Source: a virus (lineage: Duplodnaviria > Heunggongvirae > Uroviricota > Caudoviricetes). Taken from it: a stretch of DNA of 64,000 bases. Of the stretch, positions 38,876 through 43,043 are shown one piece after another; within the stretch, counting starts at the first letter, position 1, and every line of letters begins with the position of its first letter. Under the pieces are notes generated by a model. It had not been told where the DNA came from. It did no database searches and saw only the letters and a program-made list of their open reading frames with translations. The position numbers and the translations under genes were made by a program. The DNA lies in the IMG/VR virus record IMGVR_UViG_2675903433_000022. The stretch is one strand, 5' to 3'.

Positions 38876-39259
38876 ATGCTGAACGAAAAACGTTCTATAC
38901 AAACAATTCGCGATTGCACGAGTGTTATCGCAACTCATGTGCTGAATAAGCGCAAACTTGAGGTGCGTAAACTTAACAACGATGCGACTGCGCCAAAAGA
39001 CACTCGCTTCATCGTAACTTTCAAAGACGATGTTGAGAATGCTGGTGCCAGTGTAAAACCGTTGGCTGAAGCGATTTTCCTGAACGATCGTGTTCGTTTC
39101 ATTGTGAAGCCAGCAAAACAATACCCTGAATTAGCACGGTTTAGTGACCAATTCTCTGAAATTATTGAGAGTGCAATTCGCCGCTTTCTTAATACTCATG
39201 GTAGCATTGTCAGCAATACAACTGCTGATGGTACTGCTCTAAGATGGCACCTACACTAG
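38876..39259 (+). CDS. hypothetical protein (127 aa)
   Basis: ORF track; preceded by 180-bp intergenic region. Confidence 0.4.
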   Translation: MLNEKRSIQTIRDCTSVIATHVLNKRKLEVRKLNNDATAPKDTRFIVTFKDDVENAGASVKPLAEAIFLNDRVRFIVKPAKQYPELARFSDQFSEIIESAIRRFLNTHGSIVSNTTADGTALRWHLH

Positions 39260-39996
39260 AACGCACATACTCTAAAAATCTTTATGAGTTTCCTCACCGT
39301 GGGGAAACTCGCGTTTCACGTTTTGGCTACCTCATCAACGAAGCATCGCTTTTCAAAATATCTGAAATAACCATTATCGAGCCTGATGATGATATCTGTC
39401 TGTATATCCTGATGGAGAAAGTTGGAGCACGAGATCAGGGTGAACTGATGGACTTCATTCTGGACAGAGGCGAAGATGGAATGTCTGATTCGGACATTAT
39501 TCAAGCAATTCTGCGTTCCGACATGCTCGATCAGAGCAGAAACACGATAGCAGGCAGAATTGCCTTGCGTGAATACACATTCATCGAGGATGGGGTAGAG
39601 ATTGACTGCTATCAGATTGCAGGTGTTGAAACAGAAAGAGCAATAAGGCAAAGGGGACTGTGCAACCTCACGTATCGCTTCCTCCTTCATTGGTACGAAC
39701 ATCTTGTCTGTGATTACAATCAGACCATTCCTGGCGCAAAAATCTGGGCCGGTCCATTAATGCGAACAGGTGATGTAAGAATTTACAACGCAAAAACTGA
39801 GACGTTCGAGGATGTGTTAGGCGAATATGGGATGGGAAAAGAAACCGGCTTTTTGCCGTGGAACAGAGGATTGTTACTTGATCCAGAATTAAGCTCTTGG
39901 TTTCCAAATAAGGTGCAAGTTAACGTTGAGAAATTTATCGTACTTATCATCTCCCGCAAAACAAGAACCCCAGTTGGTTTATATCTAAAAGATTAA
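39244..39996 (+). CDS. hypothetical protein (250 aa)
   Basis: ORF track; overlaps previous gene by 16 bp; followed by terminator. Confidence 0.45.
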   Translation: MAPTLERTYSKNLYEFPHRGETRVSRFGYLINEASLFKISEITIIEPDDDICLYILMEKVGARDQGELMDFILDRGEDGMSDSDIIQAILRSDMLDQSRNTIAGRIALREYTFIEDGVEIDCYQIAGVETERAIRQRGLCNLTYRFLLHWYEHLVCDYNQTIPGAKIWAGPLMRTGDVRIYNAKTETFEDVLGEYGMGKETGFLPWNRGLLLDPELSSWFPNKVQVNVEKFIVLIISRKTRTPVGLYLKD

Positions 39997-40172: not shown

Positions 40173-40841
40173 ATGACCAAGATCTTTGTGGTTGGCGGCA
40201 CAAAGGGCGGGCCTGGCAAATCCACTGTTGCCCAGCAAATTGCCGTTTGCCTGAAAGTCAAAAAGAAGAAGAAGGTTTATATCACTGATATAGATATTCA
40301 GCGCACGACAACAAGCTGGTGTGAAGACCGTCGACAGAACGAAGACCTTGAGCTGATTCCTTTTGCCTACGTTCAGGATGACATCATTAAGCACCTAAAA
40401 TCGCTTCAGGGTAGAGCTGAGTTTGTAGTGGTAGATGCTGGTGGCTTTGACTCCGAAATTCAGCGACAAGCGATGCTGATGGCCGACGTTATCATTATCC
40501 CGCTGCGTCCTAAGCGTCGTGATTTGAAATCTCTGCGTGACATCGATCCTATTATCGACAATGTTCGTAATGTAAACGATAAAGTGAAGGTCCGCGCGGT
40601 CATGAACCAGTGCCCGGCTTTGCCATCACAAGTGTCTCGCATTCTGGCGGCTAAAGAGATTGTCGAGACGTTTGGCATCGAGTCTGCGCCAGTCAATCTA
40701 TATAACCGCAACGTCTACGATGATGCGGAAGAGTCTGGTCGTTCTATCTTCGAAATGACCGGTAGCGAGCGCGACAAAAAGGCTGAAGCCGAGTTTGAAG
40801 AATTTGTAGATTATCTGTTGAGTCTGGAGGAAGAAGAATAA
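40173..40841 (+). CDS. parA: ParA-family partition ATPase (small, type Ib-like)
   Basis: Deviant Walker A GGTKGGPGKST at N-terminus; 222 aa. Confidence 0.75.
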   Translation: MTKIFVVGGTKGGPGKSTVAQQIAVCLKVKKKKKVYITDIDIQRTTTSWCEDRRQNEDLELIPFAYVQDDIIKHLKSLQGRAEFVVVDAGGFDSEIQRQAMLMADVIIIPLRPKRRDLKSLRDIDPIIDNVRNVNDKVKVRAVMNQCPALPSQVSRILAAKEIVETFGIESAPVNLYNRNVYDDAEESGRSIFEMTGSERDKKAEAEFEEFVDYLLSLEEEE

Positions 40842-41200
40842 TGTCCATGAAAATGGGTGACCTAGCAAAGCGCAAAGAGCCTGATGCACCGGCTAAGAAC
40901 ACAACTCCTTTGCGCCAACCAGTCAGACCACAGGGACGCCCGACTCGTGGCAAAGAGAAAATTAAGAGCCGCACGATGTCACTGGAGGACGAATACTTCG
41001 AACTGCTGGAGATGATGAAGTTCATCCCTCGTTTCGAGAAATTCACCCGTTCAGACGTGATTCGCGCAGCCATTTTCCATCTGGCAGAGAAGTCACCGCA
41101 GGAAATCGAGGACATCGTGAAACTTAACGAGGCGATCACAGCTGCCGATGTCACGATGCGTACCGATGAAATCAAACGAGAGTTGATGAAAAAAGGTTAA
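40841..41200 (+). CDS. small partition partner protein (ParG/ParB-like)
   Basis: 119 aa, overlaps parA stop; basic disordered N-terminus. Confidence 0.45.
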   Translation: MSMKMGDLAKRKEPDAPAKNTTPLRQPVRPQGRPTRGKEKIKSRTMSLEDEYFELLEMMKFIPRFEKFTRSDVIRAAIFHLAEKSPQEIEDIVKLNEAITAADVTMRTDEIKRELMKKG

Positions 41201-41252
41201 AAATCATGCATTGGCGCAATGTACGCGCCAATGCATAACTACAGTGTCAGCT

Positions 41253-42020
41253 TTATGCCGCGCTAACACTATGTTCAGTCCTAACCACCCCAACCTTCAC
41301 AAAAGGGCTACCGTAGCTTGGTGGCTTCTTGATTAATTTGCCTACATACAGTTTTCTAATATGCTCATCGGCTATTCTGCCAACAAATTCATAACGTTTT
41401 GTGTCGGGGCCAAGAGCTATATCCCTTGTAAAGTACTGCTGAGAACCGGCTTTGACCCAGCATTCAATCCGATAAACTTCCATTATCAGCCCACCATATG
41501 TAGCGTAGGCATATTTGAGATTCTCGTCTCTTGGAACCTTTGCCCATACGCCACGCGTAGCTTCATATAATGCCAGAGCGGACATTCCTGACTTGTAGGT
41601 GCTGTTTAGCAGGAAGGCAAGACCGGCGTGCTCAGGAGCAATTTCAGTTTCCTCTTGCAGCACTAAGTGATGGTAGGCGTCCAGTGATATTCTGCCCATC
41701 ATGGAACCACTTCCTCGTACCTTATTCGTAAGCTCTCCGACCCCCATAAGGTCGATGCATGTCGCCTCAACAAGTTTGGCTGTGGTTTCATCCATACCAT
41801 GACGAAGTATATCTATGCCTAATTTTTTATTAGCCAAAAGTTCTTTGATCCGCATGGATTTGGGAGAGTCATCGGGATACTTGATGTGATCGAGACAACG
41901 AGTCGATTTGCCTTTTCCTATGTAAAACGGTCTTTTCATCTTGTCTTCTGTATCATAGAGACAGTAAACATAGTATTTAGCCTTATCCAATGATCTCGCG
42001 TATACCGATAAATCGTCCAT
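41253..42020 (-). CDS. GIY-YIG nuclease domain protein with uncharacterised C-terminal domain
   Basis: N-terminal YYVYCLYD ... PFYIGKGKSTRCLDH (GIY-YIG-like); about 170-aa C-terminal region unknown. Confidence 0.5.
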   Translation of the reverse strand: MDDLSVYARSLDKAKYYVYCLYDTEDKMKRPFYIGKGKSTRCLDHIKYPDDSPKSMRIKELLANKKLGIDILRHGMDETTAKLVEATCIDLMGVGELTNKVRGSGSMMGRISLDAYHHLVLQEETEIAPEHAGLAFLLNSTYKSGMSALALYEATRGVWAKVPRDENLKYAYATYGGLIMEVYRIECWVKAGSQQYFTRDIALGPDTKRYEFVGRIADEHIRKLYVGKLIKKPPSYGSPFVKVGVVRTEHSVSAA

Positions 42021-42131
42021 TATTGCATCTCTTAGCTACTGACTAATGCGTTCTATTTTACACATAAGTTTTTAATCAATTTAACAGGCTCAAAGTGTAG
42101 AGCTTCTGGGCGTCTAAGACGACAAGTTATG

Positions 42132-42186
42132 CCTGCTTCCGTATATATAAATAATAAGTAACTTATTAAATATATACAGAAGCAGG
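42132..42186. repeat. 55-bp near-perfect palindrome, copy 2
   Basis: Reverse complement of the element at 9084..9138. Confidence 0.8.
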
Positions 42187-42269
42187 TCTTTTAAAAGACA
42201 CCACCAGAACAACTCCCTTCCGTTTCCACTTCCAAAAACTGCCACCAGTCGCTATCATCCGCTCATTGT

Positions 42270-42290
42270 GATAAGTAAGTAACTACCTAC
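42270..42290. promoter_or_regulatory. motif site GATAAGTAAGTAACTACCTAC
   Basis: Just upstream of replication-module gene 42294..43043; near-identical to site at 37182. Confidence 0.4.
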
Positions 42291-42293
42291 CAG

Positions 42294-43043
42294 GTGAGCC
42301 ACATGAGCCAAATCTTTTTCGATACCATCGACAACGACCAGTACGACTTCATGACAGAGTGGAATACCGCTGTTATGGACAAGTGGGTCGCTGAAAACAT
42401 TGGTTTGTCGCGCTGTAAAGACGAGGCTGAACTCTTCGAGACGAAGTGGTTTGATTATCGCGACATGCATCCTCTCATGGCCACCTGTCTTTTTACGGAG
42501 GCATACAAACGTCAGTACTCAAATATCATGCTGACGCACGGTCGCGAACACTTTGAAACAGCTCCGTTCACCACCGGGTTAAAACGCCTGCCTTATCAGG
42601 AGTTGTCGACTGCCAATAAAACGTCGCTATGGAAAGCACGCCAGTTTGCTGACCGCTATTGCTGCTCATACGACTACTTTATCTCCACCGTTCTTTCCGC
42701 AGCTGCACGACGACTGTGGGACAAGCTGCCGCGTCCGCAGCATTTGTGGCAGCCAGAACTGATTGAGATATTCGAAGATAAATTAGCCAGACGCGCAACA
42801 ACCCGTCTGGATGACTCTCTGGTTAGCTTTAAGCATATGGGAGACATGCAGTTCAACCCGATTCAGGAAAGCTATTTTGAGTGGATTCTTGAGCGTTTAC
42901 GCGCCATCCCCCGCAGCAAGCGCATACGCGCAATTTTCTCCGCTATCTGGCTAATGGAAATCGTTCCAGAGCGCCTTATTTCCGCCCACTTTCCAGAAGA
43001 ACTGGAAGAAGCACGGCGGTTTATTGATCCCCTATCTAATTAA
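42294..43043 (+). CDS. hypothetical protein (249 aa), first gene of replication module
   Basis: ORF track; positional. Confidence 0.45.
   Translation: MSHMSQIFFDTIDNDQYDFMTEWNTAVMDKWVAENIGLSRCKDEAELFETKWFDYRDMHPLMATCLFTEAYKRQYSNIMLTHGREHFETAPFTTGLKRLPYQELSTANKTSLWKARQFADRYCCSYDYFISTVLSAAARRLWDKLPRPQHLWQPELIEIFEDKLARRATTRLDDSLVSFKHMGDMQFNPIQESYFEWILERLRAIPRSKRIRAIFSAIWLMEIVPERLISAHFPEELEEARRFIDPLSN

What the first reader, a model, noticed from the sequence alone, without database searches (positions are those of the whole stretch)
41253..42020. Opposite-strand GIY-YIG nuclease with an unrecognised C-terminal domain between the partition and replication modules
The only minus-strand gene in a 30-kb plus-strand block. 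The N-terminus carries GIY-YIG-like motifs (YYVYCLYD, PFYIGKGK, conserved R) and the 170-aa C-terminal domain is unassigned. It could be a homing endonuclease, a host-DNA-degrading nuclease, or a standalone defence or anti-defence nuclease.
Basis: partly seen in the sequence, partly recalled or inferred. Interest (0 to 1): 0.45.

Follow-up and report, generated by a model that had tools for sequence, protein, structure and literature searches.

The report
Phage-plasmid nuclease that cuts modified phage DNA
The gene encodes a diverged member of a recently solved family of single-protein restriction enzymes (PD-T4-3, also called CMoRE) that destroy phage DNA carrying modified cytosines, and it sits in a swappable cargo slot of an SSU5-like phage-plasmid, so it is an ordinary finding with a known explanation.

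Summary
The ORF is real: window 41253-42020, minus strand, 255 aa, with intact GIY-YIG motifs.

The "unassigned" C-terminal domain now has an identity. The whole protein aligns collinearly with PD-T4-3/CMoRE:
- PADLOC profile E=1.6e-23.
- phmmer to PDB 9U7U E=1.9e-15, 32% identity.

CMoRE is a characterised single-gene type IV restriction endonuclease. Its C-terminal domain senses 5hmC or glucosyl-5hmC, its GIY-YIG domain cuts, and it blocks T2, T4 and T6.

All family-wide conserved residues are kept: Y17, Y19, Y33, R41, H45, E85, N99, and sensor residues W159, Y183, W188, F212. The acidic autoinhibitory lid differs: it is 5 residues shorter and keeps 2 of the 4 consecutive acidic residues.

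The window is an SSU5-like E. coli phage-plasmid. The gene is a ~930-bp cassette with its own terminator hairpin, lying between the stop codon of the 119-aa gene after parA and a conserved palindrome. Relatives have this slot empty or filled with unrelated cargo (DUF2971, KAP NTPase, an unknown gene pair). The cassette is in 107 of 264 backbone-positive complete E. coli genomes.

A preprint already lists PD-T4-3 in SSU5 phage-plasmids. Homing and host-DNA degradation are not supported. Activity and specificity of this protein are untested.

The parts
41253..42020 (-). [quoted passage not shown]
   Evidence: ORF. PADLOC PD-T4-3 E=1.6e-23, residues 11-231 against profile positions 11-238 of 256. 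phmmer to 9u7u_A E=1.9e-15. BLASTP 32% identity over 237 columns. Foldseek top hits 9u7u and 9u75, E about 1.5e-11.
41706..41987 (-). [quoted passage not shown]
41862..41885 (-). Loop between helices 2 and 3 (aa 46-53, IKYPDDSP), the counterpart of the acidic autoinhibitory lid of CMoRE. It is 5 residues shorter and keeps 2 of the 4 consecutive acidic residues.
   Evidence: HMMER and pairwise alignments to 9U7U. Loop-length survey: 15 residues between H45 and L61 in most relatives, 23 in crystallised CMoRE.
41286..41693 (-). C-terminal modification-sensing domain (aa ~110-245)
41206..41236 (-). Terminator-like hairpin of the cassette. On the minus strand it is a 17-bp stem followed by UUUUU. 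It lies between the convergent 119-aa gene and the nuclease gene.
   Evidence: Fold: -26.3 kcal/mol, z=-4.9. Perfect 12-nt inverted repeat. The simple terminator scan did not list it.
42021..42130 (-). Cassette-specific upstream region of the nuclease gene, presumed to hold its promoter and ribosome-binding site
   Evidence: This stretch has no homology in sister elements that carry other cargo. No consensus sigma-70 site was found by scan. A TAAAAT hexamer at 42060-42055 and AAGAG upstream of the ATG are seen by eye only.
41201..42130 (.). The whole exchangeable cassette (~930 bp) occupying the cargo slot
   Evidence: Homology to Cyrano, SSU5, pEA11_2 and others stops at 41196-41204 and resumes at 42122-42144. 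The empty site is seen in L004.
42131..42187 (.). Conserved AT-rich ~56-bp palindrome of the backbone that forms the right border of the slot. It may terminate plus-strand cargo and the parA operon.
   Evidence: Present in all relatives just right of the variable segment. Fold: -26.2 kcal/mol, z=-7.5, followed by UCUUUU on the plus strand.
40173..41200 (+). Backbone left of the slot: parA (MipZ/ParA ATPase, 222 aa) and a 119-aa gene whose stop codon (41198-41200) is the left border
   Evidence: Pfam hits for ParA. The border is shown.

Best explanation
The gene encodes a single-protein, modification-dependent (type IV) restriction endonuclease of the PD-T4-3/CMoRE family. It is carried as accessory cargo by an SSU5-like phage-plasmid of E. 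coli.

Inferred mechanism, by homology to the solved and assayed CMoRE enzymes:
1. The C-terminal domain binds DNA that carries 5-hydroxymethylcytosine or glucosyl-5hmC.
2. The N-terminal GIY-YIG domain (Y17, Y19, Y33, R41, E85, with a divalent metal) cuts that DNA at a fixed distance.
3. Incoming T-even-type phage genomes are destroyed, while the unmodified host and phage-plasmid DNA are spared.

The gene is a self-contained ~930-bp cassette with its own upstream region and terminator hairpin. It is read opposite to the backbone, in a slot between the partition and replication modules where sister elements carry other cargo or nothing. Its likely benefit to the element is protection of its host cell from lytic competitors.

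Shown here: homology, motif conservation, fold match, cassette borders and slot polymorphism.

Inferred, not shown: enzymatic activity, which modification is recognised, oligomeric state, and expression in the plasmid state.
For: Family assignment:
- PADLOC PD-T4-3 profile E=1.6e-23, near full length.
- The only PDB sequence matches at E<=1 are the four CMoRE entries, E about 2e-15, collinear over residues 12-230.
- Foldseek top four hits are CMoRE entries, probability 1.0.

Residues:
- The residues equivalent to those that abolish CMoRE activity when mutated are present (PMC12923530 read).
- Every position conserved at 80% or more across 110 diverse representatives is retained.

Published function of family members:
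- They block T2, T4 and T6, cut only 5hmC or glucosyl-5hmC DNA, and act as single genes (PMC12923530).
- A Capnocytophaga homologue behaves likewise (PMC12366544).
- Deletion in a native E. coli host sensitises it to Tevenvirinae.

Context:
- The slot is empty in pEA11_2. Elsewhere it holds DUF2971/PDC-S31, KAP NTPase/PDC-S49 or an unknown gene pair.
- The cassette is in 107 of 264 backbone-positive complete E. coli genomes, always on plasmids.
- PD-T4-3 is already recorded by DefenseFinder in SSU5 phage-plasmids of E. coli and Shigella.
- Homologues at 73-76% identity are standalone chromosomal genes.
Against: - Identity to the assayed enzymes is only 32%. No member of this short-loop branch has been tested, so specificity could differ.
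- The acidic lid that prevents cleavage of unmodified DNA in CMoRE is 5 residues shorter here and has DD instead of DDDE.
- The dimer-interface residue L96 of CMoRE is Cys here.
- Overall TM-score to the crystal structures is low (0.36-0.39). I attribute this to a different relative orientation of the two domains in the monomer model.
- No consensus promoter was found, so expression is unproven.
Confidence: 0.8

Rival explanations
1. It is a PD-T4-3-family modification-dependent nuclease with a different or broader specificity than 5hmC/glucosyl-5hmC (for example other hypermodified bases), or with a different self-restraint mechanism because the lid is shorter.
For: - Identity to assayed CMoRE is only 32%.
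- The lid is shortened and less acidic.
- The Capnocytophaga homologue also cuts Mu DNA, which carries carbamoylmethyl-adenine (PMC12366544).
- In CMoRE the 5hmC contact is a main-chain atom of Y127, in a stretch where CMoRE has extra residues and the window protein has none to align, so it cannot be checked by sequence.
Against: - The short loop is the commonest form among 110 family representatives, so it is not a peculiarity of this protein.
Confidence: 0.15
2. It is a free-standing GIY-YIG homing endonuclease (like the T4 seg genes) that spreads by cutting the empty allele between the partition and replication modules.
For: - It is an intergenic, opposite-strand, presence/absence-polymorphic gene. 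An empty allele exists.
- The gene is more conserved (1-3 differences in 768 nt) than most of the flanking genes (96.7-99.3% identical) across plasmids, which suggests recent spread.
Against: - The C-terminal domain is the CMoRE sensor, not a NUMOD, HTH or zinc-finger DNA-binding module.
- The PHROG homing-endonuclease hit is insignificant (E=0.28).
- The same slot carries several unrelated cargos, each with its own hairpin, as expected of a general recombination hotspot.
- Homologues sit as single genes in unrelated chromosomal sites.
- Assayed family members cut modified DNA without strict sequence specificity (PMC12923530).
Confidence: 0.03
3. It is a nuclease used by the phage-plasmid in lytic growth to degrade host DNA (like T4 EndoII), or to attack host defences.
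Against: - I saw no sign that the element's DNA differs chemically from host DNA, though I did not screen the window systematically for base-modification genes. A nuclease that cuts unmodified DNA would then also hit the element.
- EndoII has no such C-terminal domain.
- The full-length match is to a defence enzyme.
- The gene is absent from about 60% of otherwise similar elements, so it is not part of the lytic programme.
Confidence: 0.02

Closest known systems
CMoRE / PD-T4-3 of E. coli APEC O1 and O157:H7 (PDB 9U7U, 9U7Z, 9U75, 9U8D; Liu et al., Nat Commun 2026, PMC12923530)
   Same: - Same two-domain, single-gene architecture and similar length (255 aa here; the deposited chains are 262 residues).
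- Same GIYxY-YIG motif and the catalytic Arg and Glu.
- Conserved sensor residues W159, Y183, W188, F212 and Y225.
   Different: - Only 32% identical.
- The acidic lid loop is 5 residues shorter, with DD instead of DDDE.
- CMoRE L96 at the dimer interface is Cys88 here.
- It is carried on an SSU5-like phage-plasmid; I did not examine where the crystallised E. coli genes are located.
- Activity of this protein is untested.
PD-T4-3Capno (Capnocytophaga homologue; Rodriguez-Rodriguez et al. 2025, PMC12366544)
   Same: Same family by annotation. It is a modification-dependent GIY-YIG nuclease that works as a single gene in E. coli.
   Different: It was reported to cut Mu DNA as well as T4 DNA. Whether the window protein does so is unknown.
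PvuRts1I/AbaSI family of 5hmC-dependent restriction enzymes (from my own knowledge)
   Same: It works alike: a sensor domain plus a nuclease domain that cuts a fixed distance from modified cytosines. The CN11/N9G pattern reported for CMoRE resembles theirs.
   Different: The nuclease fold and the sensor (SRA-like) are different. No sequence or structural match was found here.
PUA-like sensor / nuclease fusions (VcaM4I, TagI; predicted EVE-GIY-YIG fusions, Bell et al. 2020, PMC7641849)
   Different: No sequence-profile match to any PUA-like Pfam family. The CMoRE authors report no structural homologue and binding of 5hmC at an edge rather than in a pocket.
Homing GIY-YIG endonucleases (I-TevI, T4 Seg proteins) and T4 EndoII
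   Different: The C-terminal domain and the biology are different; see the rival explanations.

Membership tests
PD-T4-3 / CMoRE type IV restriction endonucleases | Full-length sequence match to the family profile and to the solved members | tested here: met
   PADLOC PDLC04031 E=1.6e-23, residues 11-231 against profile positions 11-238 of 256. phmmer to 9u7u_A and 9u75_A, E about 2-3e-15, residues 12-230 against 17-243.
PD-T4-3 / CMoRE type IV restriction endonucleases | 'GIYxY-YIG' motif with three tyrosines (CMoRE Y17, Y19, Y31) | tested here: met
   Window Y17, Y19 and Y33 align to them. They are conserved in 224-225 of 227 relatives.
PD-T4-3 / CMoRE type IV restriction endonucleases | Catalytic Arg and Glu of the GIY-YIG site | tested here: met
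   R41 and E85 align to CMoRE R39 and E93. H45 and N99 are also near-invariant.
PD-T4-3 / CMoRE type IV restriction endonucleases | Inserted 15-residue, negatively charged autoinhibitory loop with four consecutive acidic residues (the authors say 'most' members have it) | tested here: inconclusive
   A loop is present at the same place, but it is 5 residues shorter and reads PDDS where CMoRE reads DDDE. Short loops with 2-5 scattered acidic residues are the commonest form among 110 representatives.
PD-T4-3 / CMoRE type IV restriction endonucleases | C-terminal modification-sensing domain of the CMoRE fold | tested here: met
   [not shown]
PD-T4-3 / CMoRE type IV restriction endonucleases | Single-component system with no partner gene | tested here: met
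   The cassette holds one gene between backbone genes. Homologues are lone genes in Salmonella and Providencia chromosomes.
PD-T4-3 / CMoRE type IV restriction endonucleases | Tetramer (dimer of dimers) required for function; interface residues V92 and L96 and the loop between strands 1 and 2 | not testable with these tools
   V92 corresponds to V84 (kept) and L96 to C88 (changed). The loop between strands 1 and 2 is 2 residues longer. Oligomeric state cannot be tested here.
PD-T4-3 / CMoRE type IV restriction endonucleases | Cleaves 5hmC or glucosyl-5hmC DNA but not C or 5mC DNA; protects against T2, T4 and T6 | not testable with these tools
   This needs plating and nuclease assays. It is known only for other members (PMC12923530, PMC12366544).
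GIY-YIG nuclease superfamily | GIY-YIG fold and motifs | tested here: met
   [not shown]
GIY-YIG homing endonucleases (I-TevI / Seg type) | C-terminal sequence-specific DNA-binding modules, and a target in the endonuclease-free allele | tested here: not met
   The C-terminal domain is the CMoRE sensor. No Pfam DNA-binding module was found at E<=10. PHROG homing-endonuclease hit E=0.28. The slot is shared with unrelated cargo. Cleavage of the empty allele was not tested.
PUA-like modified-base readers (EVE / ASCH / YTH) | PUA-like beta-barrel fold with a base-binding pocket | tested here: inconclusive
   [not shown]

The most novel reading that the evidence does not exclude
Two modest possibilities remain open.

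(1) The branch with the short, weakly acidic lid, to which this phage-plasmid allele and most family representatives belong, may restrain itself differently from the crystallised enzymes. It may also recognise a different or wider set of DNA modifications.

(2) The CMoRE sensor domain, published as a fold without relatives, may be a very divergent PUA-like (EVE/ASCH/YTH-type) reader. That would tie this family to the other type IV enzymes that use such readers.

The cargo slot also holds an uncharacterised ~250 aa + ~140 aa gene pair that could be an undescribed defence system.
Probability: 0.3. Interest if true: 0.4.

Novelty: new member of a known kind. Interest (0 to 1): 0.2.

Why it matters
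The practical value is annotation. RefSeq calls this protein only 'LEM-3-like GIY-YIG domain-containing protein' or 'hypothetical protein'. It can be named a PD-T4-3/CMoRE-type modification-dependent restriction enzyme.

About 2% of complete E. coli genomes (107 of 5426) carry this allele on SSU5-like phage-plasmids. This could affect their susceptibility to T-even phages, including therapeutic ones.

The locus also marks a defined cargo slot in these elements. The borders are the stop codon of the 119-aa gene after parA and a conserved palindrome. The slot can be mined for further defence genes.

None of this is surprising to a specialist.

Tried and rejected
- NCBIfam gave no hit.
- Pfam gave nothing for the C-terminal domain even at E<=10.
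- The promoter and terminator consensus scan found nothing in 41100-42350. The terminator hairpin was found only by folding.
- There are no direct repeats or target-site duplication at the cassette ends, so there is no sign of transposition or site-specific insertion.
- Cassette GC content (43.7%) is not unusual for the window (19th percentile).
- Literature searches for PhiR41 and for SSU5 with GIY-YIG found nothing relevant.
- I checked whether the PD-T4-3 gene deleted in E. coli NILS69 is this phage-plasmid allele. The paper gives no sign of it, and this stays unresolved.
- The homing, host-DNA-degradation and anti-defence readings were considered and rejected (see rival explanations).

Full report
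**Observation.** The ORF is at 41253-42020 on the minus strand, with an ATG start and a TAA stop, and encodes 255 aa. Homologues begin at the same methionine. Pfam finds a LEM-3-like GIY-YIG domain (PF22945, 30.1 bits, cut-off 27) at residues 32-104 and nothing else, even at E<=10. NCBIfam finds nothing. PHROG 5356 ('unknown function') matches full length. All other minus-strand ORFs of 100 aa or more between about 6.5 kb and 52.5 kb overlap longer plus-strand ORFs. In a plasmid with the identical gene, PGAP annotates the neighbourhood almost entirely on the other strand. Upstream lie ParA and a 119-aa gene. Downstream lie a 249-aa gene, a DnaB-like helicase and a primase. The C-terminal domain is about 140 aa rather than 170.

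**What the window is.** The region is 98% identical to Escherichia phages PhiR41_1, CMS-2020a and Cyrano and 82% identical to Salmonella phage SSU5. It matches 705 PLSDB plasmids, most of them typed non-mobilizable. It is an SSU5-like phage-plasmid of E. coli.

**What the protein is.**
- The PADLOC library matches PD-T4-3 at E=1.6e-23 over residues 11-231 (profile positions 11-238 of 256).
- Against all PDB sequences, the only hits at E<=1 are the four entries of PD-T4-3, renamed CMoRE (9U7U, 9U7Z, 9U75, 9U8D). The E-value is about 2e-15 and the alignment is collinear over residues 12-230. BLASTP identity is 32%.
- The overall TM-score is low (0.36-0.39). I attribute this to the relative orientation of the two domains in the monomer model.
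- The 'unassigned' domain is thus the CMoRE modification-sensing domain.

**What is known of the family (from papers, not tested here).**
- Liu et al. 2026 (PMC12923530) show that CMoRE is a single-gene type IV restriction enzyme. It blocks T2, T4 and T6 without abortive infection.
- It binds and cuts only DNA with 5hmC or glucosyl-5hmC, at CN11/N9G.
- It needs Y17, Y19, Y31 and the catalytic Arg and Glu.
- It is a tetramer.
- It carries a 15-residue acidic lid whose neutralisation (the '4A' mutant) makes it cut ordinary DNA and become toxic.
- It binds 5hm-dCTP on the C-terminal domain.
- A Capnocytophaga homologue cuts T4 DNA but not T4-GT7 DNA, and also cuts Mu DNA (PMC12366544).
- Deleting PD-T4-3 in a clinical E. 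coli sensitises it to Tevenvirinae.

**Membership test.**
- The window protein has Y17, Y19, Y33, R41 and E85 at the positions of CMoRE Y17, Y19, Y31, R39 and E93.
- In an alignment of 227 relatives, Y17, Y19, Y33, R41, H45, E85 and N99 are near-invariant.
- Every position conserved at 80% or more among 110 diverse representatives is kept, including sensor-domain residues L151, Y152, R156, W159, V182, Y183, W188, F212, G214, A217 and Y225.
- The family is large and continuous: 1778 cluster representatives at E<=1e-3 and 640 at E<=1e-10. Most are 240-265 aa long with the same two-domain span.
- Differences from the crystallised enzymes: the lid is 5 residues shorter and reads PDDS where CMoRE reads DDDE; the loop between strands 1 and 2 is 2 residues longer; interface residue L96 is Cys88.
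- The short loop is the commonest form among the representatives, so it is a feature of a large part of the family, not of this gene.
- Activity, specificity and oligomeric state cannot be tested with these tools.

**Genomic setting.**
- Homology to sister elements ends at 41196-41204, which is the stop codon of the 119-aa gene. It resumes at 42122-42144, just left of a conserved ~56-bp AT-rich palindrome at 42131-42187.
- The ~930 bp in between are the cassette. It has three parts: a hairpin at 41206-41236 (on the minus strand a 17-bp stem followed by U5; -26.3 kcal/mol; z=-4.9), the gene, and 110 bp of private upstream sequence.
- No consensus promoter was found. There are no flanking direct repeats.
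- Occupants of the same slot in other elements:

| Element | Slot content |
|---|---|
| E. albertii pEA11_2 | empty |
| Cyrano | DUF2971 / PDC-S31 gene |
| SSU5 | DUF2971 / PDC-S31 gene plus a 214 aa + 136 aa gene pair |
| pEC00678_4 | KAP-family P-loop NTPase / PDC-S49 |
| pTLYA-2, p009_B | unknown gene pair of about 250 aa + 140 aa |

- Each cargo brings its own hairpin directly after the stop codon of the 119-aa gene.
- Among 5426 complete E. coli genomes, 264 carry the backbone's parA region. Of these, 107 have this gene, always on a plasmid and at 99% identity or more in 103 of them. The KAP NTPase is on plasmids in 28 genomes, the DUF2971 gene in 21 and the pTLYA-2-type pair in 7.
- The gene differs at 1-3 of 768 positions between plasmids, while the flanking genes are 96.7-99.3% identical. 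This suggests recent exchange of the cassette through the conserved flanks.
- Homologues of 73-76% identity in Salmonella and Providencia are lone chromosomal genes among housekeeping genes.
- A preprint that surveyed phage-plasmids with DefenseFinder already lists PD-T4-3 in SSU5-group elements of E. coli and Shigella, with 44 mentions in its supplementary table.

**Mechanism proposed.** The phage-plasmid carries a self-contained type IV restriction gene. The product recognises modified cytosines in incoming T-even-type DNA through its C-terminal domain and cuts with its GIY-YIG domain. The unmodified host and phage-plasmid DNA are spared. The homology, motifs, fold and cassette structure are shown. 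The substrate, expression and benefit are inferred.

**Rivals.**
- A different modification specificity within the same mechanism is possible, given 32% identity and the altered lid.
- Homing is unlikely. There is no DNA-binding module, the slot is shared by unrelated cargo, and homologues are scattered in unrelated chromosomal sites.
- Host-DNA degradation or anti-defence is unlikely. The element appears to share the host's DNA chemistry, and the gene is missing from about 60% of similar elements.

**A side result on the sensor fold.**
- These include AF2351, EVE proteins such as THYN1 bound to 5mC DNA, ASCH, YTH, the type IV enzyme VcaM4I, McrB N-terminal domains, and the PUA-like N-terminal domains of Lon and ATP sulfurylase.
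- The CMoRE authors state that no structural homologue was found.
- The scores are weak and come from a predicted model, so I treat a distant PUA-like relationship as a lead only.
- Bell et al. 2020 had predicted EVE-GIY-YIG fusions as type IV enzymes.

**Verdict.** This is a real gene, correctly spotted as a GIY-YIG nuclease. It is a diverged, untested member of a known and structurally solved defence family, in a known kind of place (an accessory slot of a phage-plasmid), and the association is already catalogued. Interest is low.

Noticed in passing
window 38876-39996 (and L002 491-1325; L014 17804-18602): A second variable slot lies just upstream of parA. The window has two plus-strand ORFs (127 and 250 aa) with no Pfam or PADLOC hit. 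Cyrano and pNT1F31-113kb carry a minus-strand GNAT toxin / DUF1778 antitoxin pair there. Other plasmids are only about 76% identical or unrelated in this stretch.
   Followed up: partly
window 42131-42187: A conserved ~56-bp AT-rich palindrome (-26.2 kcal/mol, z=-7.5), followed by TCTTTT, forms the right border of the cargo slot in every relative examined. It could be a terminator for the parA operon and plus-strand cargo, or a protein-binding site. Its function was not determined.
   Followed up: partly
window 41217-41224: The 7-nt loop of the cassette's terminator hairpin is inverted between plasmids (AATGTAC here, GTACATT in PhiR41_1 and pSCMY1) while the stems are identical, as if the palindrome had flipped.
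   Followed up: no
L005 2253-3420; L007 2235-3378; L003 2637-3681: An alternative cargo of the same slot is a pair of overlapping genes (214-250 aa plus 136-140 aa). It has no Pfam hit and no significant PADLOC hit. Given the location, it is a candidate uncharacterised defence system.
   Followed up: partly
phage records MK994515.1 (Serratia phage Moabite) 6439-7125, MF285618.1, ON375847.1 and others: Jumbo phages of Serratia and Pectobacterium (about 255-276 kb) encode two-domain homologues of this protein (about 28-30% identity over 85-88% of its length; a Klebsiella jumbo phage matches over 71%). They are annotated as endonucleases or homing nucleases. They may be phage-borne weapons against phages with modified DNA.
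   Followed up: no
[not shown]
   Followed up: partly
L006 2253-3947: The KAP-family NTPase cargo (PADLOC candidate PDC-S49) of the same slot also occurs at 5 chromosomal places in complete E. coli genomes, unlike the nuclease cassette, which is found only on plasmids.
   Followed up: no
L008 8001-8744 (Salmonella enterica GCA_004163535.1): A homologue at 76% identity (cluster of 376 member sequences) sits as a lone gene between a DUF5384 gene and guaA in the Salmonella chromosome. This suggests a separate single-gene insertion there.
   Followed up: no
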